In this document: piece by piece, positions 25,805-55,431 of the stretch | Layout: each line of letters opens with the position of its first letter | Position numbering within the stretch: the first letter of the stretch is position 1 | Source: Chloroflexota bacterium | Lineage (GTDB): Bacteria > Chloroflexota > Dehalococcoidia > SZUA-161 > SpSt-899 | Direction of reading: 5' to 3' | Assembly (NCBI GenBank): GCA_013203045.1 | Contig: JABMQN010000275.1 | Location: forward strand, 4,515-68,514 | DNA: 64,000 nucleotides | Translations under genes and position numbers: made by a program | The notes under the pieces: model-generated | What the model was told of the DNA's origin: nothing | What the model saw: the letters and a program-made list of their open reading frames with translations, nothing else | Database searches by the model: none

Positions 25805-26752
25805 TTATTCGATGGAAAGCAGGTAGGTTCTGAGGTTGACCTTCTTGTTCGATATGCCAAGTTTCGTTCTGATGTTATATCGGTGAGTATCAACAGTCCT
25901 TGAAGATATGCCCAACTGGCTGGCAATTTCCTTCGCAGATTTACCCTGCTTAATAAGATTTGCTACCGTAATTTCCGTGGGAGTAAGCTTCAAGAACTTC
26001 ATGGAAGCACCATGTGGAAATGATAACGCAATTTCATGTAAGTTGGTCTCTAATTCGTCCAGGTAGGCGTGCTGAACTTGGTTCAAACTGGCCTTTTTCA
26101 ACTTCTCTAGATAAGGCAAAACGAATTCTTTCATGTTAGAAAGCACCTTATCTTCCAACTCCGTTTTCACCTCTTCCGACTTTTCCAGCATAACTCGCAG
26201 GGCAATATTCGCGTCTTCAAGGCTGGAAGTGCTCTCGCTTACCAATCTTTCCAGATCATCTTTATGCCTGCGCAGTAATTCCTGTTCCCGTTTGCGAGCA
26301 GTAATATCTCGAGTAATCGCGAGAATACCTTTGATTTCACCATTGCCACTAACCAACCGAGGGTTTACCTCAATAAAGACTTTAGTCCCGTTTTTATGCT
26401 TCGCCTGCAATTCCAATACCTGAGTCTCAGCGGTCTTTCCTTCAAGCAGTTCTTTGCTCAACTCAATGCAACGTTGCCAGTCCTCTGCACTCAAGGCGCC
26501 AAATTCGAAGAATTTCTTTCCTACAACCTCTTCTCGTTTATAGCCAAAGAGATCCTCCACCTTATCATTGACATCGATGACTGTTCCATCGGTACTGATA
26601 TAAACAATGTGGTCATTAGCATTTTCGAAGATTGTCTTGAATTTCTCCTCACTGTCTCGAAGTTGTCGGTTAGCCTCGATAAGCAGTGCATTCTGTTCCC
26701 GCGAACGTATCAACTGCTTTCTTGTTTCGTCATTGGTTAGCATGGTTCTCAC
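25805..26752 (-). CDS. PAS-domain LuxR-family transcriptional regulator
   Basis: PAS core EEKFKTIFENANDHIVYISTDGTVIDVN...ITARK. LuxR HTH LTPTEITVANLIKQGKSAKEIASQLGISSRTVDTHRYNIRTKLG. Confidence 0.75.
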   Translation of the reverse strand: MRTMLTNDETRKQLIRSREQNALLIEANRQLRDSEEKFKTIFENANDHIVYISTDGTVIDVNDKVEDLFGYKREEVVGKKFFEFGALSAEDWQRCIELSKELLEGKTAETQVLELQAKHKNGTKVFIEVNPRLVSGNGEIKGILAITRDITARKREQELLRRHKDDLERLVSESTSSLEDANIALRVMLEKSEEVKTELEDKVLSNMKEFVLPYLEKLKKASLNQVQHAYLDELETNLHEIALSFPHGASMKFLKLTPTEITVANLIKQGKSAKEIASQLGISSRTVDTHRYNIRTKLGISNKKVNLRTYLLSIE

Positions 26753-27028: not shown

Positions 27029-28327
27029 TTATGGTGCCTCGAGAATAGCAACCCACTCATTGTTATACCTGAAAACATCTTCTTCTGCTGCCCGAATCTG
27101 GTACATACCAAGATGATCAACAGCCGTTCGTCGTGACTCATTGAAACCAAATTCAAAACCATCGATAGTCATATTAAACGACTTTGCAGCCTGATAAAGG
27201 GCCTCAGAATCGAATTTCTCCGGGCCTACAGCCTCAACTGCATCAGCTATGACCTCCAGCATGATGTATATGGGCATTACAGAAATGTATCCGTTACCCA
27301 TTCGAATAGTCTCTTCAGCATCGATTTCAGAATGATTCTCATAAAGCAATGTCCTGGCCAGATTGATCAAGGTACTATCTTCGGTCCACCACCACGGAGA
27401 CTGTATTATCAGCATCTCATCGACTTCAGTCCAAAGGTCCGCGTCATCTATCAACCCCAGAAATGCGCCATGTGCATCAGTACCAATGAGTTTTGCCTTA
27501 TGGCCTGCGTCTCGGAACTCCTTTACAAAATTGTTCATTGGAACAGGTGGCAACACATAATCACAGTCTTTCAATGCCGCTATTTCAGGCCCCCAAGTAA
27601 AAGTGAACCCAGTTAAATGTCCGCCATCCCACTCATACAGCTCCGGATGTTCTTTCGCGTATTTCTCAGATCCACCTAGAATTTCTTCTCCGTAAGCTTC
27701 GGCCCAATAAGCTCCACCGATTACAGCCGGCCTGTCTTTAGGAAAACGAGGATCGTTTTCAGCGATCCATTTGAGAAGGGTATAGCTAATATCCCTGGGG
27801 AAAGTGTTTGCGGGACAAAATGCATGTCCCGGAGGCAACAGTCCCTCTTTACTTGGAGCCAGAGCAAACAACACCATCCCATCGTCCTCGATACGAGGCC
27901 TGAGCGTTTCAGTCGTCGATGGCAAGGGGGCAAAAATCAGATCTGCATCTCTCCTTTTGAGCCACTCATATCCAGGGATATCTTTTGCAGGATCAAATTG
28001 CCCATCGTACAAAACTACCTTTAATTCGACTCCCGGGATAAGGTTTTCATCATTATAGTATTCAATCATATCTTCCAATGCCATGTTTACGATACTCATC
28101 GCATTTGAGGCAACGCCCGTAATATCCGTTAAATTCCCGATTGTTATTACCTTGTCTTCCACAGTAGGTGAAAACGTAGGTATCGACGTTGGTTCAATTG
28201 TAACTGATACAGTGGGAACCGATGTGTTCTCACTCTCGTTATTATCCCCACATGCAATCGTTAAAAGTAGCATCAAACACAACGATACACAAACAGTTAT
28301 TCTAATCTCTCTGGAAGCCCTTCCCAT
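27029..28327 (-). CDS. PBP1-type (Liv-like) solute-binding lipoprotein, orphan (no cognate permease adjacent)
   Basis: Lipobox LLLTIACG, a TP-rich linker, and a type-I periplasmic-binding-fold body. It is paralogous to 55432..56709. Confidence 0.65.
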   Translation of the reverse strand: MGRASREIRITVCVSLCLMLLLTIACGDNNESENTSVPTVSVTIEPTSIPTFSPTVEDKVITIGNLTDITGVASNAMSIVNMALEDMIEYYNDENLIPGVELKVVLYDGQFDPAKDIPGYEWLKRRDADLIFAPLPSTTETLRPRIEDDGMVLFALAPSKEGLLPPGHAFCPANTFPRDISYTLLKWIAENDPRFPKDRPAVIGGAYWAEAYGEEILGGSEKYAKEHPELYEWDGGHLTGFTFTWGPEIAALKDCDYVLPPVPMNNFVKEFRDAGHKAKLIGTDAHGAFLGLIDDADLWTEVDEMLIIQSPWWWTEDSTLINLARTLLYENHSEIDAEETIRMGNGYISVMPIYIMLEVIADAVEAVGPEKFDSEALYQAAKSFNMTIDGFEFGFNESRRTAVDHLGMYQIRAAEEDVFRYNNEWVAILEAP

Positions 28328-29038: not shown

Positions 29039-29935
29039 TTGATAATGGGACTTAGAATATACCGGGAACCCGATATTACCAAACCGGACTTGATTGCCGC
29101 CTGGCCAGGTATCGGTAATATTGGGCTGATCGCTGTCGACACCTTGAGAAGAGCCGTTGGGGCTGAACCTTTCGCAGAGATAGAGCCCTGGCATTTCTTC
29201 TATCCGAACGGGATAACCGTTCAGAATGGCGAACTCATCGATATGGGTTTTCCTCGGAGCCGATTCTTTTACAAGAAACTTGGCACAAAGGACTTGATAT
29301 TTTTTGTAGGAGAAGAACAACCCTCCGGCGGGAGAAAAGGTTACGAAATGGTTGACCTCGTACTTAATTTAGCATCGATGTTCAGGTGTCAAAGGGTGTA
29401 CACCGCCGCTGCCGCAGTTAATACCATTCATCACTCGGTAAAACCCAAAGTCTGGGCAGTCCCCAATAACAAAACCCTCATACAAGAAGTAAAACAATAC
29501 CCTAACACTGTTTTAATGAGCGATGTGGCGGGTAGAATAGGTGAGGGTAATATATCAGGACTTAACGGTCTTCTGTTGGGCGCAGCTAGCAAAAGAGACC
29601 TGCCGGGCATCTGCCTCCTCGGGGAAATCCCGGTGTACGTCTCTCAGTTCATGACACCTTATCCCAAGGCCTCGCGATCCATAATAGAGATCTTAAACCA
29701 CAACTTAGGAATTGATCCTGACCTGAGCCGATTGGACGAAATGGACCGGGAAGTCGACGAAAATATCGAGAGATTATACACTATGATTCCTCAGGAAATG
29801 AGAGATCATATCGATCATCTGAAATATGTAGAGCAGCCTGAAGCAGAATCTACTGGCAAGATAACAGAAGAGGACAAGAAAGATATCATGCAACATATCG
29901 AAGAATTCTTTAAGAAAGGCGGACAAGAGGATTGA
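29039..29935 (+). CDS. PAC2-family protein (proteasome-assembly-chaperone-2-like)
   Basis: ~300-aa PAC2-like body (PDLIAAWPGIGNIGLIAV...). Confidence 0.6.
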   Translation: MIMGLRIYREPDITKPDLIAAWPGIGNIGLIAVDTLRRAVGAEPFAEIEPWHFFYPNGITVQNGELIDMGFPRSRFFYKKLGTKDLIFFVGEEQPSGGRKGYEMVDLVLNLASMFRCQRVYTAAAAVNTIHHSVKPKVWAVPNNKTLIQEVKQYPNTVLMSDVAGRIGEGNISGLNGLLLGAASKRDLPGICLLGEIPVYVSQFMTPYPKASRSIIEILNHNLGIDPDLSRLDEMDREVDENIERLYTMIPQEMRDHIDHLKYVEQPEAESTGKITEEDKKDIMQHIEEFFKKGGQED

Positions 29936-30738
29936 CTGATGGTGATCTTCAGAAGCCTTCGCTTATAGTGATCTGGACTCACGAGGTGGGTGGTTTATCG
30001 AAGGGACTTGTTACCCATCTTGAAGAGAAACTGGGATGGGTATGCATCGAGGAGATTGAGCCAGCCGGTTTCTTCTCTCTCTCCGGTGTTGAAGTGAAAA
30101 ATGACCTCATCCAGTTCCCTGCTAGCAGATTCTATTCCTGCCTGAAAGAGAATGTCTTCTTTTTTGTAAGCCATGCTCCCAGTCGAGAACCGTACCAATT
30201 TCTTACAAAAGTTATAGATTTGGCAATTGACAGTTGTGGAATCAAGGAACTCTATACTATTGGTGGAGTGGTTACATCAGTCACTCACACCAGTCCCAGA
30301 CGTGTGTTTGGCATTGTTAATCACGCAGAGCTCAACGATACATTGACACAATGCGGGGTGGAAACGGGCATGGATTATCAGACTCCCCCCGGTGGCGGCA
30401 CAAGTCTCAGTAATTATTTGTTATGGGTCTCCAAGACAAGGAACCTCGCAGGCTGTACATTATGGGTTGAGGTGCCGTTCTATCTCGCTAACGTCCGCGA
30501 TCCTATGGCTTGCAAAAAGATGCTTGAAATCCTGAATCTCAGGTTTTCCATGGAATTGGATCTGCACCCGATTGATATTGCCATAGAAAGACTTAATACG
30601 GACATACAAAGTCTTAGGGCTGAAAACACGGATATCAGCCGATATATTGAACTTCTGGAAAGAGGTATCGCGCTCAGTGAAGATGAGGGTGAAACTTTAT
30701 CACGAGAAGTAATCAAACTCCTCTATAACTATGATTAA
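29932..30738 (+). CDS. PAC2-family protein (tandem paralog)
   Basis: Second PAC2-like ORF. Its start overlaps the upstream stop (ATGA). Confidence 0.55.
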   Translation: MTDGDLQKPSLIVIWTHEVGGLSKGLVTHLEEKLGWVCIEEIEPAGFFSLSGVEVKNDLIQFPASRFYSCLKENVFFFVSHAPSREPYQFLTKVIDLAIDSCGIKELYTIGGVVTSVTHTSPRRVFGIVNHAELNDTLTQCGVETGMDYQTPPGGGTSLSNYLLWVSKTRNLAGCTLWVEVPFYLANVRDPMACKKMLEILNLRFSMELDLHPIDIAIERLNTDIQSLRAENTDISRYIELLERGIALSEDEGETLSREVIKLLYNYD

Positions 30739-32416: not shown

Positions 32417-33271
32417 TTGCAATCACGTAACCACCGGGACATTTTCATGAAAAGAACTGACATAGAGAACCTCGAAACAAAATTGCTGCTGGATGCCATT
32501 TACAAACGGTATGGGTATGATTTTAGTCATTATGCCACCGCCTCACTCAAGCGGCGGATTGAACACTTTTTGAACGAAAGTAATCATGATAAGATCACAG
32601 AAACGATTCCCCGGTTACTTTATGATGAGGTATTCTTCGAAGAATTGATCCAGACCCTTTCCATCACCGTGACCGAGATGTTCAGAGATCCTTTTGTCTA
32701 CCGTGCGATCAGAGGGAAAATCATCCCCACCTTAAAAGACCTTCCCTTTCTGAAGATATGGCACGCAGGGTGTGCCACAGGAGAAGAGGTATATTCTATG
32801 GCCATTCTGCTCAAAGAGGCCGGTATCTTTAAAAATTTCCACATTTATGCTACCGATTTCAACAACCATGCTTTAGAGAGAGCAAGAGAGGGGATTTATC
32901 CTTTGAAGAACGCTCGTATAAGCACAGTCAACTATCAGAAATCGGATGGGGAAACGTCCTTTTCGGATTACTACCAATCAAAATATGACTCCGTGATCAT
33001 GAACCGTGATCTGAAGAAGAACATTACTTTTGCCAATCACAACCTCGTTACCGACTCTGTCTTCGGTGAAATGAACTTCATAATCTGCCGTAATGTGATG
33101 ATATATTTCGATAAAATACTGCAAGAACGAGTATTTCATCTGTTCAACGATAGCCTGAGCATAGGTGGATTCCTGTGCATTGGCAGTAAGGAATCCCTAC
33201 AATTCTCCGAAGTGTACGATAACTTCGAAGAGGTTGCACGCAAAGAGAGGATATACCGAAAAATCAGGTAG
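32417..33271 (+). CDS. cheR: CheR-type protein-glutamate O-methyltransferase
   Basis: SAM-binding region LKIWHAGCATGEEVYSMAILL plus the CheR N-terminal helical domain. Confidence 0.85.
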   Translation: MQSRNHRDIFMKRTDIENLETKLLLDAIYKRYGYDFSHYATASLKRRIEHFLNESNHDKITETIPRLLYDEVFFEELIQTLSITVTEMFRDPFVYRAIRGKIIPTLKDLPFLKIWHAGCATGEEVYSMAILLKEAGIFKNFHIYATDFNNHALERAREGIYPLKNARISTVNYQKSDGETSFSDYYQSKYDSVIMNRDLKKNITFANHNLVTDSVFGEMNFIICRNVMIYFDKILQERVFHLFNDSLSIGGFLCIGSKESLQFSEVYDNFEEVARKERIYRKIR

Positions 33272-33930
33272 TGACAGCAGAAAGGTCGATAGGAGATGGC
33301 TGGAAAGCTATGAGCAAGAAAAACGGTTACAAAGCAGTGGTTGTGGGGGTATCCGCCGGTGGTATGGATGCCCTTCCTCGAATTTTGAAACCTTTGCCGA
33401 AAAATTTCCCGTTGCCGATCATCATTGTTCAGCACACCCATCCAAGTGGCGATGACGGCTTTTTCGTTCGTTATCTTAACCAGAGATGCAAACTCGAAGT
33501 CATTGAGGCAACCGAGAATCAACCAATCGAAGACGGAAAAGTGTACCTCGCACCTGCCGATCGTCATCTTCTCATTGAACAAGACAGATTACTTGCACTA
33601 TCCACCGCAAGCAAGGTCAATCACTCCAGACCCTCCATCGATGTGCTATTCGAAAGTGCGGCAGATGCTTATGATTCAGGACTCATTGGTATTATCCTTA
33701 CTGGTGCCACTTCAGACGGGGCAAAGGGAATGAAAAAAATCGACGATTGTGGCGGTATAACAATAGCTCAAAACCCGGAAACTGCAAAAGCACCCGCCAT
33801 GCCCAAAGCGGCCATTGAAGCCTGTGAGATCGATTATGTACTTCCTCTGGAGAATATTCCAGAGGAGTTATTGAAGTTAACCAGAAAAGTAATCTTTACA
33901 TCTTCTCTGAATCAAGGAGATATATCATGA
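33271..33930 (+). CDS. cheB: CheB-type protein-glutamate methylesterase, catalytic domain only (no receiver domain)
   Basis: AVVVGVSAGGMDAL, IVQHTH, and the GD/GTS motifs of CheB_methylest. The real start may be ATG 33310 (MSKKNG). Confidence 0.8.
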   Translation: MTAERSIGDGWKAMSKKNGYKAVVVGVSAGGMDALPRILKPLPKNFPLPIIIVQHTHPSGDDGFFVRYLNQRCKLEVIEATENQPIEDGKVYLAPADRHLLIEQDRLLALSTASKVNHSRPSIDVLFESAADAYDSGLIGIILTGATSDGAKGMKKIDDCGGITIAQNPETAKAPAMPKAAIEACEIDYVLPLENIPEELLKLTRKVIFTSSLNQGDIS

Positions 33931-36900
33931 AAAAACCCACCATTCCACAAAACCCCCAAAGTAAGTTCTTGAGCCTGCGAGGTAAATTGACCTTACTAAT
34001 ACTACTCATCGGCATACTGCCCATAATTATTATTGGTTTCATCTCGTATAGCAGTTATGGTCAGTCCGTTACAAGCGCAAAAAAGGGAATCAGTACTTCC
34101 GAACAGAAACTATCGGATGGTTTTGTCGGCCTGAATTTGCAGAACATAGCTCATGACACAGCTAAAGAAGTTGATGAATTCTTTGAATCAACCATGGCTG
34201 ATGTTATAGCTAGTGCCAAATACTCTTTAATTGTAGATGCGACCCAGGAGTCCCTTGGTGTAGCTGAAGAGTATGGATTTTCAAATGTGCCAAAGGAAGA
34301 TATCCAAAGAGTGATGGTATCTGCTCACAACAAAGCACCGAATGCATCCGCAGACAACTACCTCGCTCTGTTAGATATGGATCACCCAGCTACTGAACAC
34401 ATCCTGCAAATGAAGAGTAGCTCAAGATATTTTATCGATTTATTCTTCACTGATGTACTTGGATACAATGCATCGGTAACCGGTCCAACCGAGCGCTTTG
34501 TCCAATCAGATGAAAAGTGGTGGAAAGACGCATGGAATGAAGGAATCAGCATTGGCGATATCGAAGATATCGATGAAGACGAGTCCACCGAAATCTGGGC
34601 ACTCAGTATAGCCGTTCGCATCGACAATGAAGCCGGTGATCCTGTAGGTGTGATGAGAGCCGTGCTGGATATAGCCGCAATTCAAGATATAGCAACAACA
34701 AATGCAGGCAAGGTTGAAAGCGGACAAGTATTGATAGTCACCGAAAACGGGAGTCCGCTGGCAGAAACCGCCTCTGAACACGATCCCAAACGGATCATGA
34801 ATAAAGGAACATGGCAAAGTGACAATGAGGTAAGGAAAAAAGTCGATTCTGTCTTCAATGCCAGCACCCGCAATGGTTCTGAACTAATTGAGGACTCTAT
34901 GATAGGATTCGCCCGTTCTGCTTCAGCAGACTACTACAGCGAAATCGAAGGTTTCAACGGATTCAGTTGGGCTGTGATCGTTGAGCAACCCCAAGAAGTG
35001 GCCTTCGCGCTTCTAGCCAGTCTAAATGAATTGGAAAATGATCTTAGTAATTCTCAGAGAGCCACGGGGATGACTATCCTTGTGGTAGCCATAGGGATGG
35101 TTCTGATTGGAATACTTATTGCTTTCAGCGTCAGCCGCAGTATTACCAGACCAATGAACCGTCTCCGTAGTGCAACTGAACAGTTCCGCATGGGTAATGA
35201 AGATATCGTAATTGATATTGATTCCAAGGATGAGGTTGGTGATTTGGCCAAAGCTTTCAATCGGATGTTATCTGAACGAAAACTGGCAAACGAGGCACTG
35301 CGCACAGAACGTGATTATTCCACGGGAATTGTTGAACGCACACCGGCCGTCATTGTAGGTATTGCACCTGATGGCTCAGTAACATTCATTAATCCCGCTG
35401 GTGAAGAGATCACAGGATACAATTCGGAAGAACTTATTGACAAGAACTGGTGGCAAACCTTCCATCCGGGCGATGAATACAAGCAAGTCAAAGAGTTATT
35501 CCAGGTTTTACACGAGGGCGGTGATACACACAACTATGAGATGACCCTGACAGCGAAAGATGGAGAGAAGCATACCTGCGAATGGAATATTATCGAACGA
35601 TTTGATGAGAGTGGCGAAATTGTAGAGATCATTGCTTTCGGAAATAATATCACGGAACGCAAACAGTCGGAAGAAGACCTTAGAAAAGCGAACGAGGAAA
35701 TCAATCTGATTCTGGAAAACGTTACTTCAGTCAGTCAAGCTATTGTGGATGGGGACTTCAGTAAAGAAATCGAACTGACCACTGAAAAACCTGAACTGGG
35801 TTCTGCCTTGCAGGAAATGATCAGGATTCTCAAGGGAGTGGTAGATCAGGCAAATACTATCGCCGCCGGTAATTATGAAATGGATATCATCCCAAGATCA
35901 GAAATGGATGAACTTGGGATTGCTCTACAAAACATGACCCAGGCCTTGCGGGAAATGAAACAGGTAAACTATAAGCAATTGTGGTTCGCCGAACGCCAGG
36001 CACGATTGAACGACGTAATGCGCGGTGAACAAGATATCCCCGATCTTGCCAGAAATCTCACCGGTTATCTGGCCAAAACACTGAATGCTCAGATGGCTAC
36101 TCTATATGTATTAAATCCGGAAGATAACAAACTTCTCTTAGTAGGAAGTTATGCCTTCACTCACCGTAAGGGTAATCCCGGCATGTTTGAATTAGGCGAA
36201 GGACTGGTAGGACAAGCAGCACTTGAAAAGGAACTCATCGTTTTTTCCAACATTCCGGAAGATTATATCAAGATTGGCTCGTCTCTGGGTGATACCATCC
36301 CTCGCAATATCATGGTGATCCCATTCCTATACGATGGTAACACTACAGGTGTTATAGAGTTGGCGTCAGTTGAAGAATTTTCTGATGATACGATCGCTTT
36401 CCTCAATAGTGTTATGGAATCCATCGCTATCGCTGTTAACTCGGCTGAGGCTCGCGTGAAAATGCAGGAATTGCTTCATTACTCACAAGAACAGGCAGAA
36501 CAACTTCAATTCCAGGAGCAGGAACTGCGAACAGCCAATGAAGAACTGACTCTTAAAACCGAAAAACTGGAAGCATCCGAAAAGGGTCTTAAGAGCCAGC
36601 GAGAAGAGTTGCAGGCAACTAACGAAGAGCTGGAAGAGAAAACACAAAAACTGCAAACCTCACAGACCCAACTCACGGCCCAACAGGAACAATTGCAGGC
36701 TGCTAACGAGGAGTTGGAGGAGAAGACCTTTTCTCTGGAAAAACAGAGGGAAGAGGTTTTCAAGAAGAACGAGCAGCTTGAAATTGCGAGTCAGGAATTG
36801 GAACTACGAGCAGAAGACCTTAGATTGGCCAGTAAGTATAAGAGCGAGTTCCTGGCGAACATGTCACACGAACTCCGCACTCCCTTGAACAGTTTACTAG

Positions 36901-38906
36901 TACTGGCACAAGATCTAGCTTCCAACAAAACAGGGAATCTTGACGAAGATCAAATGGAATCGGCAGATATTATACATAAAAGCGGGCAGGATCTACTTAC
37001 ACTTATTAATGAGATTCTCGACCTTTCGAAGATTGAAGCTGGTAAGATGCCTGTAAATATTTGCCCTGTCCTCCTCCCTGATATAGCCAACAGTATCAAC
37101 ACCAACTTCAAGCATGTCATGGCAGGGAGAGGCGTAGAGCTAATAATAAATGTGGATGAGTCCATTCCCGAAACAATCGAGACAGATCAGCAAAGGTTGT
37201 TACAGATAATCAAGAACCTTATGTCCAATGCTATCAAGTTTACCGATACTGGCAGCATTACAGTCGATTTCTTCAAGCCTGCCGCTAACGCTAATCTCTC
37301 CAGAAGTGGGCTCGATCAACAGCAAACTATCGGTATTAGTGTTACCGATACCGGTGTTGGTATTCCAAAGGAGAAGCAAAAACCAATTTTCGAGGCTTTC
37401 CAACAGGCTGACGGGAGTACTTCACGACAATATGGCGGAACCGGATTGGGGCTGTCAATTTCCAGAGAGCTTGCCAGACTTCTCGGTGGAGAGATTCAAC
37501 TGGAAAGTGAAGAGAATAAAGGTTCTAAATTCACTATTTTTATCCCAGCAGAAATGATCGAACCGGACGAAGCTGATGAACCTTCCGATACGGTATCAGC
37601 TAAATCCACAGAACAACCGCAAACCACAGAATCAAATATGGCATCTGTAAAGATTGCTGAACCGGTAACCGAGAATGACGAGAGAAAATCCGCTCCCTCA
37701 ATTAAAGACGACCGTGATGTAATCGAGGGAAACAACCGGGTGATTCTGGTCATTGAAGATGACCTCAACTGGGCCAAAACTCTTTACAAGTTCTGTCATC
37801 AAAGGAATTTCAAATGCTTGCATGCAGGAGACGGAGAGACCGGATTACAGCTTGCTGAGCAATATCAACCCACTGCCATAGTTCTGGATATCAGGTTGCC
37901 CGGGCTGGATGGATGGGGTGTCCTTGAGTTGCTGAAAGATAATTCCAACACGCGCCATATTCCGGTGCACATGATGTCAGCATCTGAAGAATCCATTGAT
38001 GCTTATAAGAAAGGCGTTATCGGATTCCTGACAAAACCGATAGACAGCAACCAGCTTGATGACGCATTCACGAAGATCGAAGACGTCATTTCACGAGACG
38101 TGAAAGAGCTTTTGATAATTGAAAAAGATGCAAAACTCCGCAAGAACATCGCGAAGCTCATTGGTGACGATGATGTAAATACAACGGCTGTTGGTTCTGG
38201 TAAACAAGCGTTAGATGAATTACGATCAAAGACTTATGACTGTATGATTCTTGATCTGGCCCTCTCCGATATATCCGGTTTCGATGTACTCAAACAAATG
38301 AACGATTCCGAGGACATTTCGGCGCCACCAGTTGTGGTATACGCAGGAAGAGAACTCACACCGGATGAAGAACTTAAGTTACAGATGTACGCCGGGTCCA
38401 TAATGGTCAAAGGTGTCAAATCTGAAGATCGATTGCTGGACGAGACAGCCCTCTTCCTCCATAGGGTCATAGATGATTTACCCGCACCCAAGAAAGAAAT
38501 AATTACTCGCCTTCACGATAAAGACAGCATCTTCGAAGGCAAGAAAATCCTGCTGGTTGACGACGACATGCGCAACGTTTTTGCCCTCTCAAAGGTGATG
38601 GAAGGTGTAGGAATGGAGATAATAAAGGCTTCCAATGGGAAGAAGGCTCTGGAGGCTCTGGAAAAAGATGCGGATGTTGATTTGGTATTGATGGACATAA
38701 TGATGCCCGTCATGGATGGCTATGAAGCTATGCATCATATCAGGGACCAGGAGCGCTTTGCCGACTTGCCCATATTAGCATTAACTGCAAAAGCGATGGT
38801 CGATGACCGCGAGAAATGCATTGCTGCGGGTGCTAATGACTATATGCCAAAACCGGTAGATGTCGAAAGATTACTCTCACTTATTCGGGTGTGGTTATAC
38901 AAATAA
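33927..38906 (+). CDS. multisensor hybrid histidine kinase: TM-periplasmic sensor-TM-HAMP-PAS-HAMP-GAF-coiled coil-HisKA-HATPase-REC-REC-REC
   Basis: 1659 aa. Two TM segments flank a ~340-aa extracytoplasmic domain. It carries an H-box SHELRTPLN, an HATPase G-box [10 protein letters not shown], and three receiver domains. Its ATG overlaps the cheB stop. Confidence 0.85.
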   Translation: MKKPTIPQNPQSKFLSLRGKLTLLILLIGILPIIIIGFISYSSYGQSVTSAKKGISTSEQKLSDGFVGLNLQNIAHDTAKEVDEFFESTMADVIASAKYSLIVDATQESLGVAEEYGFSNVPKEDIQRVMVSAHNKAPNASADNYLALLDMDHPATEHILQMKSSSRYFIDLFFTDVLGYNASVTGPTERFVQSDEKWWKDAWNEGISIGDIEDIDEDESTEIWALSIAVRIDNEAGDPVGVMRAVLDIAAIQDIATTNAGKVESGQVLIVTENGSPLAETASEHDPKRIMNKGTWQSDNEVRKKVDSVFNASTRNGSELIEDSMIGFARSASADYYSEIEGFNGFSWAVIVEQPQEVAFALLASLNELENDLSNSQRATGMTILVVAIGMVLIGILIAFSVSRSITRPMNRLRSATEQFRMGNEDIVIDIDSKDEVGDLAKAFNRMLSERKLANEALRTERDYSTGIVERTPAVIVGIAPDGSVTFINPAGEEITGYNSEELIDKNWWQTFHPGDEYKQVKELFQVLHEGGDTHNYEMTLTAKDGEKHTCEWNIIERFDESGEIVEIIAFGNNITERKQSEEDLRKANEEINLILENVTSVSQAIVDGDFSKEIELTTEKPELGSALQEMIRILKGVVDQANTIAAGNYEMDIIPRSEMDELGIALQNMTQALREMKQVNYKQLWFAERQARLNDVMRGEQDIPDLARNLTGYLAKTLNAQMATLYVLNPEDNKLLLVGSYAFTHRKGNPGMFELGEGLVGQAALEKELIVFSNIPEDYIKIGSSLGDTIPRNIMVIPFLYDGNTTGVIELASVEEFSDDTIAFLNSVMESIAIAVNSAEARVKMQELLHYSQEQAEQLQFQEQELRTANEELTLKTEKLEASEKGLKSQREELQATNEELEEKTQKLQTSQTQLTAQQEQLQAANEELEEKTFSLEKQREEVFKKNEQLEIASQELELRAEDLRLASKYKSEFLANMSHELRTPLNSLLVLAQDLASNKTGNLDEDQMESADIIHKSGQDLLTLINEILDLSKIEAGKMPVNICPVLLPDIANSINTNFKHVMAGRGVELIINVDESIPETIETDQQRLLQIIKNLMSNAIKFTDTGSITVDFFKPAANANLSRSGLDQQQTIGISVTDTGVGIPKEKQKPIFEAFQQADGSTSRQYGGTGLGLSISRELARLLGGEIQLESEENKGSKFTIFIPAEMIEPDEADEPSDTVSAKSTEQPQTTESNMASVKIAEPVTENDERKSAPSIKDDRDVIEGNNRVILVIEDDLNWAKTLYKFCHQRNFKCLHAGDGETGLQLAEQYQPTAIVLDIRLPGLDGWGVLELLKDNSNTRHIPVHMMSASEESIDAYKKGVIGFLTKPIDSNQLDDAFTKIEDVISRDVKELLIIEKDAKLRKNIAKLIGDDDVNTTAVGSGKQALDELRSKTYDCMILDLALSDISGFDVLKQMNDSEDISAPPVVVYAGRELTPDEELKLQMYAGSIMVKGVKSEDRLLDETALFLHRVIDDLPAPKKEIITRLHDKDSIFEGKKILLVDDDMRNVFALSKVMEGVGMEIIKASNGKKALEALEKDADVDLVLMDIMMPVMDGYEAMHHIRDQERFADLPILALTAKAMVDDREKCIAAGANDYMPKPVDVERLLSLIRVWLYK

Positions 38907-38918
38907 AGGAGTGATGCC

Positions 38919-40172
38919 ATGAAGGTTAAACCAAAAATCCTCATTGTTGATGACAAGGGCGAAAACCTGGTCGCGCTTGAGAAAACCCTGGCCGATCTGA
39001 ATGTGGATTTCGTACGGGCCACGTCTGGCAACGATGCACTTGCAGTAACCCTCGAGCAGGAATTTGCCCTTGCCCTGGTTGATGTGCAAATGCCTGGCAT
39101 GGATGGTTTTGAAACAGTAGAGCTAATGCGCCAGGACAAAAAAACCAGGCATATACCTATCATCTTTATATCTGCTATTTATACTGAGGAATATCATAAG
39201 ATCAAAGGGATAGAAACCGGGGCAATCGATTTTATTACCAAACCTATTAATCCCAAGATTGTACTAGGTAAAGTTCGCATATTCCTTGAACTCCATGAAT
39301 ACAAAAGGTCCTTAGAGGAACAAAACAAGATCATCACCGCTTCCCACAAAGAACTTCAGATTGCCTTGGATGAACTGGGACTAATGCATGAAGAGTTGGT
39401 GAAAAGCCAGGAACAGCTCGTTCAATCCCAGAAATTGGCAGCCATCGGTCAGCTTGTCTCCGGTATTGCACACGAAATAAACAATCCATTGATGGCGATT
39501 TCCGGTAATGCACAACTGCTTTTAGAGGACGCTGAGGATGAGGATACACTTGAAAGCCTGGAAGTGATTCGTTGTGAAACCCAGCGTGCTACTGATATAG
39601 TGCAAAACCTGCTGGCTTTTGCACGATCACACAAATCTGATAGGGATCTCGTTTCCATTAATGAGGTTGTAGAGAACGCCGTCAAGTTATGTTCGAACAA
39701 ATCGAAAATCGACAACATTCAGATAGTATACGATTTCACCAGCGACATGCCAAATATAAATATTGATTCACTACAAATACAGCAAGTCTTTCTGAATTTG
39801 ATTAACAATGCGATTCAGGCAATGACAAAAACCAAAGATAGTGGCAAGCTCATAATCCGCACACAACAACCCTCAGAAGAAACGGTTCAAATATCTTTTG
39901 AGGATGATGGGCCTGGGATTCCCGCCGAAAACATTGATAGGGTATTTGAACCTTTCTTTACAACCAAGGACATCGGTGAGGGAACCGGGTTAGGGCTTAG
40001 TATTTGTTATGGTATCATCCAAAGTCACAATGGAAAAATCTATGCTGAAAGTACAGAATCCAACGGAGCAACCTTTAATATTGAACTTCCCATTATCGAT
40101 GATACTTCAAATAACCAGTCAGATATAGCAGTCTTGGAACCGGCAGGAGCAACTCAAGATACACAAGGATAG
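38919..40172 (+). CDS. receiver-domain histidine kinase (REC-HisKA-HATPase)
   Basis: N-terminal REC ([20 protein letters not shown]), H-box AHEINNPL, and HATPase GTGLGLS. Confidence 0.8.
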
Positions 40173-40187: not shown

Positions 40188-41798
40188 ATGGATGCCAAAC
40201 CCAAGATGCTAATTGTTGATGATAGAGTCGAAAACCTGGTCGCTTTGGAAAAGACTTTGGGTGACCTCGATGTTGATTTCGTGCGCGCCCTTTCGGGCAA
40301 CGAAGCGTTAGCCCACACCTTGGAGCACGACTTCGCCATTGTGCTTTGTGACGTTCAAATGCCGGAAATGGATGGCTTTGAAACCGTCGAATTTATGCGT
40401 CAGGATAAGAAGACAAAACACCTGCCTGTAATTTTTGTTTCTGCAATATACACAGAAGATTTTCACATGGTAAAAGGGATAGAGACGGGTGCTGTCGACT
40501 TTATCACCAAACCTATCATTCCTGAAATTCTTCGTGGTAAAGTACAGGTATTTCTTGATCTTCACGCTAATAGGTTGTCACTTGAGGAAGAGATCAAACT
40601 CCGAACTGAAGCAGAACAGACGATTCAAGAGCAATATGACGATATCCAAATACACACACACGAACTGGAGGCAGCTAACCAGGAACTGCGTGAAACCCAG
40701 ACAAAACTTCTGGAACTCAATCAGGAAGTCCAGGAAAGCGAAGAGAGATACCGTGACCTGTTTGAAAACGCCAATGACCTGATTCAGAGCGTTGATGCAG
40801 AGGGTAACTTCGTATATGTGAATTCCGCCTGGCTCGAAGTTCTGGGATACGAAATGAAAGAGGTAGAGAATCTGAATTTCACTGATGTCGTGCCGGAAGA
40901 AGAATGGGCTCATTGCCAGGAACAATTCCAACAAATTCTGCAAGGCGAACGCTTGACGAATATGCAGACTATTTTCTTGACCAAGGATGGAAGACATATC
41001 TACGTTGAAGGTAATGCTGGGGCGAGATTCAAGAATGGGGAATTCGTAGCTAACAGAGGAATATTCAGAGATATCACTGAGCGTAAGATCGCAGAAGAGA
41101 AACAGCTTGAACTCGACCGTATGAAACAGGAGTTCATCTCCAATGTTTCCCATGAATTACGTACGCCCCTGCACTCCCTCAAAGGGTTTGTCAAACTATT
41201 GCTTGGCGGTAAAGTGACAGATTCGGAAACACAAAGCGAGTTCCTTAGCATTATCGAGAAAGAAAGCGACCGTCTTAGCGGTTTAATAGATGACTTGCTT
41301 GATATATCACGCCTCGAATCTGGGCGTTTTAAAGTTTACAAAGAACTGGTATCATTGGAGAATATAATTCGCGACGCTATCCAAAGGGTAGGAAGTCTGG
41401 CAAACGAACGGGGAATCACCATCACTGACGAAATCCAACCAGAATTGCCAGAGATAGAAGTAGACCAAAAACGCATAAGACAGGTTGTGACCAACCTGCT
41501 AAGCAATGCCATCAAGTATAATAATGAAAATGGTAGTATTACTGTACGGAGTGAGGTCACCGATAATGAGTTGCTCGTACAGGTTGCTGATGGTGGAATT
41601 GGGATAGCTGATGAGGATATCCCGAAGCTGTTCGAAAGGTTTTATCGGGTGGAAGCTTCTGATAGAATCGAGGGAACAGGTCTGGGGCTCCATATCAGCC
41701 AGCAAATCGTCGAAGCCCATTCCGGCAAAATATGGATAGAGAGCGAGTTGGGAGAAGGCAGTACTTTTAGTTTTGCTTTACCTTTGAATGAAAACTGA
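40188..41798 (+). CDS. receiver-domain PAS histidine kinase (REC-coiled coil-PAS-HisKA-HATPase), paralog of 38919
   Basis: The REC domain is ~70% identical to that of 38919. H-box SHELRTPLHSL. HATPase GTGLGLHIS. Confidence 0.8.
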   Translation: MDAKPKMLIVDDRVENLVALEKTLGDLDVDFVRALSGNEALAHTLEHDFAIVLCDVQMPEMDGFETVEFMRQDKKTKHLPVIFVSAIYTEDFHMVKGIETGAVDFITKPIIPEILRGKVQVFLDLHANRLSLEEEIKLRTEAEQTIQEQYDDIQIHTHELEAANQELRETQTKLLELNQEVQESEERYRDLFENANDLIQSVDAEGNFVYVNSAWLEVLGYEMKEVENLNFTDVVPEEEWAHCQEQFQQILQGERLTNMQTIFLTKDGRHIYVEGNAGARFKNGEFVANRGIFRDITERKIAEEKQLELDRMKQEFISNVSHELRTPLHSLKGFVKLLLGGKVTDSETQSEFLSIIEKESDRLSGLIDDLLDISRLESGRFKVYKELVSLENIIRDAIQRVGSLANERGITITDEIQPELPEIEVDQKRIRQVVTNLLSNAIKYNNENGSITVRSEVTDNELLVQVADGGIGIADEDIPKLFERFYRVEASDRIEGTGLGLHISQQIVEAHSGKIWIESELGEGSTFSFALPLNEN

Positions 41799-41822
41799 AT
41801 AAAATATCCTGGGGGGAGTTAT

Positions 41823-42206
41823 ATGAACGGTAAAATTCTAATTGTTGAAGACGATGCAAGTGCACTGAGATTGATAGAGTTTGCTTTGCAGCAAGAACGC
41901 TATGAAGTTATCGTTGCAACCAATGGATTGACCGGGCTCAAGAAAGCTCAAACCGAAAACCCGGACCTCGTCATTCTTGATCTAATGCTTCCAGGTTTGG
42001 ATGGTTTCGAGATCTGTAGTCGATTGAGAAAGGATCCTGAAACTGAGAAAGTACCAATCCTGATACTGTCTGCCAAGACTCACGAATCAGATGTAGCGAC
42101 AGCACGCGCAGTAGGAGCAGATGCCTATCTCACCAAGTCAGGAGACCCCTCAGAGATAGTAGCCCAGGTACAGACTCTGATATCACAAAAACCCCTCATA
42201 ATATAG
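41823..42206 (+). CDS. single-domain response regulator (CheY-like)
   Basis: 127-aa REC domain only (ILIVEDD..LDLMLPGLDG..K). Confidence 0.8.
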   Translation: MNGKILIVEDDASALRLIEFALQQERYEVIVATNGLTGLKKAQTENPDLVILDLMLPGLDGFEICSRLRKDPETEKVPILILSAKTHESDVATARAVGADAYLTKSGDPSEIVAQVQTLISQKPLII

Positions 42207-52040: not shown

Positions 52041-52594
52041 AATTGAGTAGGTTAATTTCGATGATAAAAGCCCAGGGCGGAGTAACTCTCGTTGAGCTAA
52101 TGGTAGGCATTGCTATAACCGGTGCAATTGGCGGCGTTATAGTAATGACGATTATACAATTGGATACCGTGGGAAGCTCCAATACAAATCGAATTGTCAG
52201 TGTTAATTATGTGCAAAATGCGGGGTACTGGATTCAAGTTGATACCAAGGTGGCTCAGACTATAGAACTGGATGCAGGGGATTCAGGTTTGCCCCTGATA
52301 TTAAACTGGGTTGATTGGGACAATACAGAGCATCAGGTCAGCTATTCTTTGGATGGTGATAAACTGCAACGTATTCAATCGATTAATAGCGGATCACCGA
52401 ATGTGCTTGTTGTTGCACAGTCCGTTGATGCTGAACCTGATTTGACCAATTGTGAATTTGTTGATGGGATGCTCAATTTCACGTTGACTACCACGGAGGG
52501 CTCTGGTACGCGGGGAAACACTGAGACCCGCGTGTTCAGTTTTAAACCGAGGGCGGAACTTGTGGTGTTGAAAGGTAATGGGGAGGAAGTCTAG
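52037..52594 (+). CDS. pseudopilin / minor pilin (prepilin-type N-terminus)
   Basis: GG/VTLVELMVGIAITGAIGGVIV. Confidence 0.7.
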   Translation: MKLSRLISMIKAQGGVTLVELMVGIAITGAIGGVIVMTIIQLDTVGSSNTNRIVSVNYVQNAGYWIQVDTKVAQTIELDAGDSGLPLILNWVDWDNTEHQVSYSLDGDKLQRIQSINSGSPNVLVVAQSVDAEPDLTNCEFVDGMLNFTLTTTEGSGTRGNTETRVFSFKPRAELVVLKGNGEEV

Positions 52595-55137: not shown

Positions 55138-55431
55138 TAGCCTAAAAAGTGTTCGCCGGCACCCAAACGCCGGCGAACACATCATACTCCCTTTTTTCCG
55201 TTCAACTGAAAATATTCGACCTTTTTTGAGTTCGAATAGTCTTACGTATTTCCTCAAACACATCTGCATTCCCTCATGTCCCTCTGTTGCGTATTTCTTA
55301 AACTGTTTATCAATTCCTGGGAGCATGTTTGATTTATTATTCTCAGTTCTGGTACTATCTCTTTTATAATCGTCCTATAATAGATAGTGAGTGGTTATGG
55401 ATTTAAGATACGACAACTCTGTGGGGAGAGA

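What the first reader, a model, noticed from the sequence alone, without database searches (positions are those of the whole stretch)
36530..36790. Three ~27-residue-spaced ANEELxxKT repeats in the kinase stalk resemble chemoreceptor methylation heptads
Nucleotides 36538, 36616 and 36697 start near-identical units. They read TANEELTLKTEKL, ATNEELEEKTQKL and AANEELEEKTFSL, embedded in a Q/E-rich coiled coil just N-terminal of the H-box. The pattern A/S-x-x-E-E-x-x-x-T is close to the methyl-accepting consensus of MCPs. It is also close to the (S/A)TNEELQ repeats I recall from CheB/CheR-fused PAS kinases. CheR and CheB are encoded immediately upstream.
Basis: partly seen in the sequence, partly recalled or inferred. 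Interest (0 to 1): 0.55.

Follow-up and report, generated by a model that had tools for sequence, protein, structure and literature searches.

The report
Probable methylation stalk of a kinase
The three repeats are real four-heptad modules of a long coiled-coil stalk in an RsbK-type sensor kinase, and their exposed glutamate pairs are plausible targets of the CheR/CheB enzymes encoded next door, as already shown for a Bacillus cereus relative.

Summary
The repeats exist, but their spacing is exactly 28 residues (four heptads), not about 27. They start at nt 36531, 36615 and 36699.

They lie in one uninterrupted helix of about 140 residues between the GAF domain and the phospho-acceptor His981. 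Leu sits at heptad position d, a polar residue (Asn, Thr, Gln) at a, and Glu-Glu at b and c.

The chemoreceptor (MCP) methylation consensus is not met at the NEEL pairs (3 of 6 positions). It is not conserved in homologues either.

The functional idea is still supported. The kinase belongs to the RsbK family. B. cereus RsbK is methylated on this same helix by RsbM, a CheR-type enzyme encoded next to it (PMC4574943).

In 50 genome loci, stalks next to a CheR gene carry about five times more xEEL heptads than stalks without one. In 80 loci found with this CheR as query, most assessable ones hold this kinase family; one had an MCP-like hit and none a CheW hit.

The distance from GAF to His is 5 mod 7 in all 190 family members measured.

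Verdict: a new member of a known kind. It has a paired CheB without a receiver domain and an unusually long stalk of three units. Methylation and the exact sites are untested.

The parts
32417..33271 (+). cheR-type protein-glutamate methyltransferase (RsbM-like); the true start codon is uncertain
   Evidence: Pfam CheR 2e-40 and CheR_N. Counterparts of E. coli R98, E129, D154 and Y235 are kept. It is 45-47% identical to the CheR genes beside Firmicute RsbK-type kinases, but 30% to E. coli CheR.
33271..33930 (+). cheB-type methylesterase/deamidase, catalytic domain only (no receiver domain)
   Evidence: Pfam CheB_methylest 7e-60. The Ser28/His55/Asp149 triad aligns to E. coli S164/H190/D286, and the N-terminal REC domain is absent.
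33927..38906 (+). Hybrid sensor histidine kinase, 1659 aa: dCache_1, TM, HAMP, PAS, GAF, stalk, HisKA, HATPase and three REC domains
   Evidence: ORF list and Pfam scan.
36030..36437 (+). GAF domain (aa 702-837). Its last-strand motif GVIELAS starts at aa 808.
   Evidence: Pfam GAF_2 1e-18; motif position.
36450..36869 (+). Continuous coiled-coil stalk (aa 842-981) running into DHp helix 1 and ending at the phospho-acceptor His981
   Evidence: Unbroken heptad register with Leu at d in 16 of 18 heptads. Hydrophobicity peaks at periods 7, 3.5 and 2.35. AlphaFold2 gives a single helix over aa 842-998, with 10-residue-block mean pLDDT 77-97, lowest at the N-terminal end.
36516..36599 (+). 28-aa unit 1 (aa 864-891): EQELRTA NEELTLK TEKLEAS EKGLKSQ; b/c pairs Q865-E866 and E872-E873
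36600..36683 (+). 28-aa unit 2 (aa 892-919): REELQAT NEELEEK TQKLQTS QTQLTAQ; b/c pairs E893-E894 and E900-E901
   Evidence: KSQREELQAT matches 5 of 6 MCP consensus positions (read from the sequence).
36684..36767 (+). 28-aa unit 3 (aa 920-947): QEQLQAA NEELEEK TFSLEKQ REEVFKK; b/c pairs E921-Q922, E928-E929 and E942-E943
   Evidence: TAQQEQLQAA (aa 917-926) is the only full MCP-consensus match in the protein.
36768..36788 (+). Fourth, diverged N-heptad NEQLEIA (aa 948-954)
36840..37553 (+). HisKA (aa 972-1039, H-box SKYKSEFLANMSHELRTP) and HATPase_c (aa 1086-1209)
   Evidence: Pfam. The H-box is shared by the family.
37734..38906 (+). C-terminal region with three receiver domains
   Evidence: Pfam Response_reg, three stretches, the best at aa 1541-1653; the start coordinate (37734, aa 1270) is an estimate read from the translation, not a Pfam boundary. 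The same 650-706 aa tail after the His is seen in CheR-linked homologues.
38919..40172 (+). REC-HisKA-HATPase protein, a probable downstream partner
   Evidence: Pfam. Relatives lie right after CheR/CheB in 7 of 24 CheR-positive genome loci and 13 of 80 metagenome loci.
40188..42206 (+). REC-PAS-HisKA-HATPase protein (40188..41798) and a single-domain REC protein (41823..42206)
   Evidence: Pfam.

Best explanation
**Structure (shown by sequence and prediction).** The three repeats are four-heptad (28-residue) modules of a rigid parallel-dimer-type coiled coil of about 140 residues. This signalling-helix stalk links the GAF domain to the DHp helix that carries His981, in an RsbK-type hybrid histidine kinase. 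In each heptad Leu fills position d. A polar residue (Asn, Thr, Gln, Arg) fills position a. Positions b and c point to solvent and are often Glu-Glu.

**Function (inferred).** CheR, encoded in the same operon and related to RsbM, methyl-esterifies some of these b/c glutamates, most likely the second Glu (position c) of the xEEL heptads. The CheB without a receiver domain removes the methyl groups and may deamidate Gln at equivalent positions. Neutralising charge along the helix would change stalk stability or register. That would alter the kinase/phosphotransfer output toward the kinase's own three receiver domains and the downstream REC-HK proteins. The result would be chemoreceptor-style covalent adaptation built onto a two-component kinase.

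**Status.** The structure and the gene linkage are shown. Methylation of this protein, the exact sites and the sign of the effect are inferred.
For: **Register and helix**
- The heptad register is unbroken, and the AlphaFold2 model gives one continuous helix over aa 842-998.
- The distance from the GAF last strand to the His is 5 mod 7 in all 190 family members measured (89 to 173 residues). The stalk therefore changes length only by whole heptads.

**Precedent**
- RsbK is methylated on its S-helix by the adjacent CheR-type RsbM, shown in vitro with 14C-SAM and with genetic consequences (PMC4574943).
- In 120 Bacillales RsbK orthologues, His-67/-66 and His-60/-59 are nearly invariant Glu-Glu pairs in [ST]EELQxQ heptads. 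These are followed by NEQLEERT, the same motif as NEELEEKT here.

**Gene linkage**
- Genome loci: xEE[LMIV] heptads average 2.83 per stalk beside a CheR gene (n=18) and 0.47 without one (n=32), Mann-Whitney p = 4e-7. The difference survives collapsing to sequence clusters (p 0.0002-0.006).
- NEEL heptads occur in 10 of 18 CheR-linked stalks and 5 of 32 others (p = 0.008). xEEL heptads just before an N-heptad occur in 13 of 18 and 7 of 32 (p = 0.0008).
- Reverse test: of 80 metagenome loci found with this CheR, a strict H-box pattern finds the family kinase in 44; my hand tally over with a looser pattern is about 51-55 of about 62 assessable loci. The 44 average 4.25 EEL heptads per stalk; one locus has an MCP-like hit and none has CheW.
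- No MCP or CheW is found in the 64-kb window.

**Enzymes look active**
- The CheR residues and the CheB catalytic triad are kept.

**Geometry**
- The Glu pairs occupy heptad positions b and c, as I assign them for the Tar sites E301-E302 and E308-Q309 (MEQL against NEEL).
Against: - No biochemical data exist for this protein or for any member paired with CheB.
- The canonical MCP consensus is not met at the NEEL pairs and is absent from homologues.
- The strict S-helix 'ERT' signature is missing.
- Some CheR-linked stalks have no Glu-Glu heptad (L021, L044). One long stalk has no CheR within 8.5 kb (L032).
- About 9 of about 62 assessable CheR-anchored loci show no family kinase.
- The correlations are not formally corrected for phylogeny.
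- The RsbK site numbers (E439, E446) come from my memory of Chen et al. 2012. They could not be read here, and the B. cereus sequence itself was not retrieved.
- Stalk length as such is not a strict correlate: short stalks with CheB exist in the metagenome set.
Confidence: 0.6

Rival explanations
1. The repeats are purely structural. They form a heptad-quantised spacer or ruler that sets the distance and phase between GAF and DHp. Acidic b/c positions are simply typical of signalling helices. CheR and CheB act on another substrate, such as MCPs encoded elsewhere or the downstream REC-HK proteins.
For: - The NExL/N-heptad motif and the stalk also occur in family members with no CheR nearby.
- S-helices in general have acidic b/c positions and an Asn at position a (PMC1592074).
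- The MCP consensus is absent.
- The genome outside the window is unknown.
Against: - It does not explain the 5-fold enrichment of Glu-Glu heptads in CheR-linked stalks.
- It does not explain why this CheR clade sits beside these kinases with almost no MCP or CheW genes.
- In B. cereus the kinase helix itself is the substrate (PMC4574943).
Confidence: 0.25
2. The repeated units are docking surfaces for the kinase's own receiver domains or for the REC-HK partners. Methylation, if it occurs, only tunes that binding.
For: - In RsbK the REC domain interacts partly with the S-helix, and co-expressed RsbM strengthens this (two-hybrid data, PMC4574943).
- The window kinase has three units and three receiver domains.
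Against: - The C-terminal tail of 650-706 aa (consistent with three REC domains, as in the window) is nearly constant in CheR-linked homologues, while stalk length varies from 110 to 166 residues in the same loci (unit number read as 1 to 3 from the printed stalks). The 3:3 match is therefore probably coincidence.
- No interaction data exist for this protein.
Confidence: 0.1
3. The similarity is a chance product of low-complexity, Glu/Gln/Leu-rich coiled-coil composition.
For: The stalk is 23% Glu, 16% Gln and 16% Leu. Any heptad coil gives some self-similarity.
Against: - The offset-28 identity exceeds shuffles that keep heptad-position composition (p about 0.001).
- The unit is conserved across phyla.
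Confidence: 0.03

Closest known systems
Bacillus cereus RsbK-RsbM (-RsbY) module: a hybrid kinase methylated on its S-helix by a CheR-type methyltransferase (Chen et al. 2012 Environ Microbiol 14:2788, not readable here; Chen et al. 2015, PMC4574943; de Been et al. 2011)
   Same: - Same core: GAF, coiled coil, HisKA, HATPase, REC, with the YKSEFLANMSHELRTP H-box.
- Glu-Glu pairs in x-E-E-L heptads upstream of an N-E-[EQ]-L-E-E-[KR]-T heptad.
- A CheR-type gene directly adjacent. The window CheR is 45-47% identical to the CheR genes beside Firmicute RsbK-type kinases.
   Different: - The sensor is dCache_1 plus PAS instead of CHASE3.
- Three receiver domains instead of one.
- 28-aa modules rather than tandem 7-aa SEELQxQ heptads.
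- The stalk is 42-49 residues longer than in the Firmicute relatives measured here (D = 173 against 124-131).
- A paired CheB esterase is present, whereas RsbM is described as an orphan with no demethylation.
- No PP2C response regulator or sigma-B genes are in the window; the outputs are REC-HK proteins.
- Gene order is CheR, CheB, kinase.
Methylation helices of methyl-accepting chemotaxis proteins (E. coli Tar/Tsr) with CheR/CheB adaptation
   Same: - Glu/Gln pairs at solvent-exposed heptad positions b/c of a long coiled coil.
- Enzymes of the CheR and CheB families.
- Length variation by whole heptads (the MCP part of this last point is my recollection of Alexander and Zhulin 2007).
   Different: - A single continuous helix (parallel dimer expected), not an antiparallel hairpin forming a four-helix bundle.
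- No MCPsignal domain, CheW or CheA.
- The consensus [ASTG][ASTG]xx[EQ][EQ]xx[ASTG][ASTG], which recovers all four Tar sites, is not met at NEEL and is not conserved in the family.
- CheB lacks the receiver domain.
Signalling helix (S-helix) of Anantharaman, Balaji and Aravind 2006 (PMC1592074)
   Same: - A parallel coiled-coil linker between a sensor domain and DHp.
- Asn at an a position.
- Acidic b/c positions.
- Glu at e and Lys/Arg at g after the Asn heptad.
   Different: - About 20 heptads instead of about 5.
- The defining E-R-T signature at c-d-e of the central heptad is absent; position d is Leu throughout.
CheB/CheR-fusion PAS kinases (KEGG K13924 type) with NEELQS[ST] heptad repeats between CheR and PAS_10
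   Same: - The same N-E-E-L heptad: Asn at a, Glu-Glu at b/c, Leu at d.
- Physical coupling to CheR-family enzymes.
   Different: - There the coil is fused to the enzymes and precedes a PAS_10 domain, with 7-aa units.
- Here the enzymes are separate proteins and the coil precedes the DHp.
- No function is known to me for the fusion coil.

Membership tests
RsbK-type methylatable hybrid histidine kinase | GAF domain joined by a long helix to HisKA/HATPase, with C-terminal receiver domain(s) | tested here: met
   Pfam; AlphaFold2 helix; 45-52% identity over GAF-stalk-HisKA to thousands of relatives.
RsbK-type methylatable hybrid histidine kinase | A CheR-type methyltransferase gene directly adjacent | tested here: met
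   cheR 32417..33271 and cheB 33271..33930 abut the kinase gene. The same linkage is seen in 24 of 80 genome loci and in most CheR-anchored loci.
RsbK-type methylatable hybrid histidine kinase | Glu-Glu pairs in x-E-E-L heptads of the stalk, upstream of an NE[EQ]LEE[KR]T heptad | tested here: met
   Five xEE[LV] heptads in the window. Bacillales orthologues have invariant Glu-Glu at His-67/-66 and His-60/-59.
RsbK-type methylatable hybrid histidine kinase | CHASE3 sensor, and an RsbY (REC-PP2C) / sigma-B output | tested here: not met
   The sensor is dCache_1 plus PAS. No PP2C or anti-sigma genes were found in the flanking ORFs scanned, which span 25.8-56.7 kb of the window.
RsbK-type methylatable hybrid histidine kinase | The stalk is actually methylated by the CheR-type enzyme | not testable with these tools
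   Needs mass spectrometry or radiolabelled SAM.
MCP methylation site | Consensus [ASTG][ASTG]-x-x-[EQ][EQ]-x-x-[ASTG][ASTG] | tested here: not met
   - NEEL pairs match 3 of 6 positions.
- There is one full match at aa 917-926, with 0.04 expected by chance.
- None of 14 close homologues checked has a match, and none of 235 EEL heptads does.
- The pattern recovers all four Tar sites.
MCP methylation site | Glu/Gln pair at exposed heptad positions b/c | tested here: met
   Window register. The Tar register is my own a/d assignment read from the sequence printed.
MCP methylation site | Antiparallel methylation helices within an MCPsignal four-helix bundle | tested here: not met
   No MCPsignal hit; a single helix over aa 842-998; no tblastn hit with the Tar signalling domain.
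S-helix (Anantharaman et al. 2006) | A parallel coiled-coil linker between sensor and output domains, with Asn at a and acidic b/c positions | tested here: met
S-helix (Anantharaman et al. 2006) | E-R-T signature at c-d-e of the central heptad; about 5 heptads | tested here: not met
   Position d is Leu, Met, Ser or Val in all 18 heptads (never Arg), and there is no ERT. The stalk has about 20 heptads.
CheR methyltransferase | CheR_N and SAM-binding domains, with catalytic and SAM-binding residues | tested here: met
   Pfam. R90, E124, D147 and Y230 align to E. coli R98, E129, D154 and Y235; the functional roles of these residues come from my memory.
CheB methylesterase | Ser-His-Asp triad; N-terminal receiver domain | tested here: inconclusive
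   The triad is met (S28, H55, D149). The receiver domain is absent: the protein is 219 aa, catalytic domain only.

The most novel reading that the evidence does not exclude
The xEEL heptads form a modular adaptation cassette. Kinases of this family would gain or lose whole-heptad methyl-acceptor modules when paired with a dedicated CheR and a CheB without a receiver domain. That would give two-component kinases reversible, chemoreceptor-like sensory memory. The site motif ([Q/N/S]-E-E-L-x-x-[Q/T/S]) would differ from the MCP consensus and would be shared with the coil of CheB/CheR-fusion kinases. The number of modules (three here, the longest stalk measured) would set the adaptation range.
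Probability: 0.3. Interest if true: 0.7.

Novelty: new member of a known kind. Interest (0 to 1): 0.45.

Why it matters
Covalent adaptation by CheR and CheB is textbook for chemoreceptors but barely studied for histidine kinases. The only tested case I found is B. cereus RsbK with an orphan methyltransferase.

This locus belongs to a large and phylogenetically wide group: more than 7000 relatives in the protein search, and many loci with a paired CheR and CheB and almost no MCP or CheW genes. In this group the same chemistry is probably reversible.

The analysis gives concrete residues to test. It also gives two simple sequence rules that could guide annotation and experiments on how long signalling helices transmit and store information. 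The rules are heptad-quantised stalk length and Glu-Glu heptad density that tracks the presence of CheR.

Tried and rejected
- **Strict MCP consensus scan.** One hit in the window, none in 14 close homologues or in 235 EEL heptads. Rejected as the basis of the resemblance.
- **Delimiting the stalk by the last Gly or Pro.** Unreliable, because Gly occurs inside stalks. Replaced by the distance from the GAF last-strand motif to the His.
- **Stalk length as the CheR correlate.**
  - It held in the genome set: 14 of 15 against 4 of 34.
  - The apparent restriction of CheB to long stalks in that set failed, because the CheR-anchored set has short stalks with CheB.
  - Glu-Glu heptad density is the better correlate.
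- **Three units matching three receiver domains.** Rejected as coincidence: the C-terminal tail length is constant while unit number varies.
- **Literature.**
  - Searches for CheR/CheB with hybrid kinases, Flavobacterium, or specific RsbK residues found nothing useful.
  - Chen et al. 2012 and de Been et al. 2011 are not held.
- **Retrieving B. cereus RsbK.** A search with a Planococcaceae orthologue returned 120 other Bacillales orthologues but not the B. cereus protein.
- **Solved structures.** None covers the stalk. The best match, 7z8n (which I read as BarA/GacS-like from its sequence; the PDB name is only "Histidine kinase"), starts about 65 residues before the His.
- **REC-HK partner.** It is found right after CheR/CheB in only a minority of loci, so it is not claimed as a fixed part of the module.
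Full report
**1. What is there**

- The finding lies inside a 1659-aa ORF (33927..38906, +). Pfam resolves it as dCache_1 (aa 124-352), HAMP (402-448), PAS (468-580), GAF (702-837), HisKA (972-1039), HATPase_c (1086-1209) and three receiver domains.
- Directly upstream, with overlapping stop and start codons, are a CheR-type methyltransferase (32417..33271) and a CheB-type methylesterase with no receiver domain (33271..33930).
- Downstream follow a REC-HisKA-HATPase protein, a REC-PAS-HisKA-HATPase protein and a single receiver protein.
- A tblastn search of the whole 64-kb window found no MCP or CheW, and Pfam scans of the flanking ORFs (25.8-56.7 kb) found no PP2C or anti-sigma gene.

**2. 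The observation**

- The three units are real: TANEELTLKTEKL, ATNEELEEKTQKL and AANEELEEKTFSL. They start at nt 36531, 36615 and 36699.
- Their Asn codons are exactly 84 nt apart, which is 28 residues or four heptads, not about 27. A fourth N-heptad (NEQL) follows after three more heptads.
- From aa 843 to 968 the heptad register never breaks.
  - Position d is Leu in 16 of 18 heptads.
  - Position a is polar (N, T, Q, R, E, S).
  - Positions b and c are mostly Glu or Gln.
- Hydrophobicity shows the 7, 3.5 and 2.35 harmonic series.
- AlphaFold2, run with a 13-sequence alignment, predicts one uninterrupted helix from aa 842 to 998. That covers the stalk plus DHp helix 1, with mean pLDDT of 77-97 per 10-residue block, lowest at the N-terminal end.
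- The 28-residue period exceeds what the heptad pattern alone gives: 36 identities at offset 28 against 24.7 +/- 3.2 (p about 0.001).
- The units are only 36-46% identical in protein and about half identical in DNA, so the duplication is old.

**3. Family context**

- The GAF-stalk-HisKA segment has more than 7000 relatives at E <= 1e-10, from many phyla. They share the stalk consensus ELQxQQEELxxTNEELEEKAxLL...KNREVE...TSKYKSEFLANMSHELRTP.
- The distance from the GAF last-strand motif (GVIELAS) to the phospho-acceptor His is 5 mod 7 in every member measured:
  - 55 of 55 genome loci;
  - 25 of 25 metagenome loci;
  - 109 of 109 database proteins;
  - the window itself at 173, the longest seen.
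- The stalk therefore grows and shrinks only by whole heptads. A continuous coiled coil that must hold the phase between sensor and DHp would behave this way.

**4. Link to CheR and CheB**

- *Genome set.* In 80 genome loci found through the H-box, 24 have a close CheR homologue directly after the kinase gene, and 15 of those also have CheB.
  - xEE[LMIV] heptads (b, c = Glu-Glu) average 2.83 per stalk (0.22 per heptad) in the 18 CheR-linked stalks measured. In the 32 assessable stalks without CheR the figures are 0.47 (0.046 per heptad), Mann-Whitney p = 4e-7.
  - The result survives collapsing to clusters at 80, 70 or 60% identity.
  - NEEL heptads are enriched (10 of 18 against 5 of 32). 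xEEL heptads just before an N-heptad are enriched more strongly (13 of 18 against 7 of 32).
- *Reverse test.* I took 80 metagenome loci found with the window CheR (44-62% identity).
  - A strict H-box pattern finds the family kinase in 44; my hand tally over with a looser pattern is about 51-55 of about 62 assessable loci.
  - The 44 strict-pattern stalks average 4.25 EEL heptads.
  - The 650-706 aa tail after the His is the same as here.
  - One locus has an MCP-like hit and none has CheW.
  - The order CheR, CheB, kinase seen in the window occurs in 11 loci; kinase, CheR, (CheB) occurs in 33.
- *Enzymes.* CheR keeps the counterparts of E. coli R98, E129, D154 and Y235. CheB keeps the Ser-His-Asp triad.
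- *Exceptions.*
  - L021 and L044 have CheR but no Glu-Glu heptad.
  - L032 has a long stalk but no CheR.
  - About nine CheR loci show no family kinase.

**5. Precedent**

- Bacillus cereus RsbK (CHASE3-HAMP-GAF-S-helix-HK-REC) is methylated on its signalling helix by RsbM, the CheR-type enzyme encoded next to it. Methylation is needed to keep sigma-B off.
- The authors report 127 RsbK-like kinases in 10 phyla (PMC4574943, citing Chen et al. 2012; also PMC12848376).
- The window CheR is 45-47% identical to the CheR genes beside Firmicute RsbK-type kinases, against 30% to E. coli CheR.
- In 120 Bacillales RsbK orthologues the stalk reads ...TEELQxQSEELQxQSEELQMQxEELxxINEQLEERT... Positions His-67/-66 and His-60/-59 are almost invariant Glu-Glu.
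- My memory of the 2012 abstract is that the mapped sites are E439 and E446, with His505. These would be His-66 and His-59, the second (c-position) Glu of SEEL heptads. I could not read that paper or fetch the B. cereus protein, so this mapping is a lead and not a result.
- The motif after these heptads, NEQLEERT, is the homologue of the window's NEELEEKT.

**6. Comparison with chemoreceptors**

- The pattern [ASTG][ASTG]xx[EQ][EQ]xx[ASTG][ASTG] recovers exactly the four Tar sites. There the pair sits at heptad positions b/c and the second residue is modified. Tar M307-E308-Q309-L310 is therefore geometrically equivalent to N-E-E-L.
- The small-residue flanks are missing at the NEEL pairs, which match 3 of 6 positions.
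- The heptads before each NEEL fit better:
  - KSQREELQAT matches 5 of 6;
  - TAQQEQLQAA matches 6 of 6 and is the only match in the protein, with 0.04 expected.
- This is not conserved. None of 14 close homologues and none of 235 EEL heptads has a full match. If CheR acts here, it reads a different motif, roughly [Q/N/S]-E-E-L-[E/Q/R]-x-[Q/T/S], usually in runs of adjacent heptads.
- The helix is single and continuous, not an antiparallel methylation-helix pair.
- The strict S-helix signature (E-R-T at c-d-e; PMC1592074) is also absent. 'S-helix' is the label used by the RsbK authors rather than a tested membership.

**7.

- A query built from the recalled NEELQS[ST] repeat found 33 short fragments. 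Thirteen are named 'CheB/CheR fusion protein' by JGI and five carry PAS_10.
- One locus shows CheR_N/CheR, then the coil, then PAS_10, PAS and HisKA/HATPase, broken into several ORFs.
- N-E-E-L heptad coils are thus tied to CheR-family enzymes in a second, independent architecture.

**8. Conclusion**

- The structural reading is secure: four-heptad modules of a long signalling stalk.
- The functional reading is the best explanation, but it is inferred from a homologous precedent and from gene linkage, not shown. In that reading the b/c glutamates are substrates of the operon's CheR and CheB.
- Which pairs are used is open. By homology, the [Q/R]EEL heptads are at least as likely as the NEEL heptads.
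- The system is a new member of the RsbK-type methylatable kinases. It differs in its sensor domains, its three-unit stalk, its three receiver domains and above all its paired esterase, which suggests reversible adaptation rather than the one-way methylation proposed for B. cereus.

Noticed in passing
window 36348..36869 (aa 808-981), and loci L001-L161: The distance from the GAF last-strand motif to the phospho-acceptor His is 5 mod 7 in all 190 family members measured (89-173 residues). The window's 173 is the longest.
   Followed up: yes
window 33271..33930: The CheB has only the catalytic domain (219 aa, triad intact) and no receiver domain, so the usual phospho-control of the esterase cannot apply.
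   Followed up: partly
L102, L106, L111, L115, L120, L121, L135 (stalks): In these loci, which I take to be of Bacteroidota type (the contigs carry no taxon label), the stalk repeats a 21-residue unit (QQEELxxxNEELEEQxQxLxx) instead of the 28-residue unit. They share the window's gene order CheR, CheB, kinase.
   Followed up: partly
L021, L044, L032: These are exceptions to the correlation. Two CheR-linked short stalks have Asp-Glu or Asp-Gln instead of Glu-Glu heptads. One long stalk (D = 152) has no CheR within 8.5 kb.
   Followed up: no
window ~35700..36030 (aa ~600-700): Between PAS and GAF the sequence looks like two degenerate HAMP units (GDFSKEIEL..., GNYEMDIIP...) that the local Pfam scan did not call. 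Homologues carry PF18947 in their precomputed domain lists.
   Followed up: no
window 29039..29935 and 29932..30738 (+): Two adjacent, overlapping PAC2-family genes.
   Followed up: no
window 52594..55137 (+): An 847-aa ORF with no Pfam hit at E <= 0.001.
   Followed up: no
window 25805..26752 (-); 27029..28327 (-); 55387..56709 (+): A PAS plus LuxR/GerE regulator, and two Peripla_BP_6 solute-binding proteins, flank the signalling cluster.
   Followed up: no
L162 3116..7189: A CheR, NEELQS coil, PAS_10, PAS, HisKA/HATPase gene is split into at least six small ORFs, probably by assembly frameshifts. Many hits are such 53-84 aa fragments.
   Followed up: partly
window aa 913-922 (nt 36663..36692): At His-66 and His-59, the distances of the RsbK Glu-Glu heptads, the window has Gln915 and Gln922 at c positions. 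With a CheB deamidase present these could be pre-sites, as in MCPs. This is speculative, because heptad insertions make the alignment by distance uncertain.
   Followed up: no
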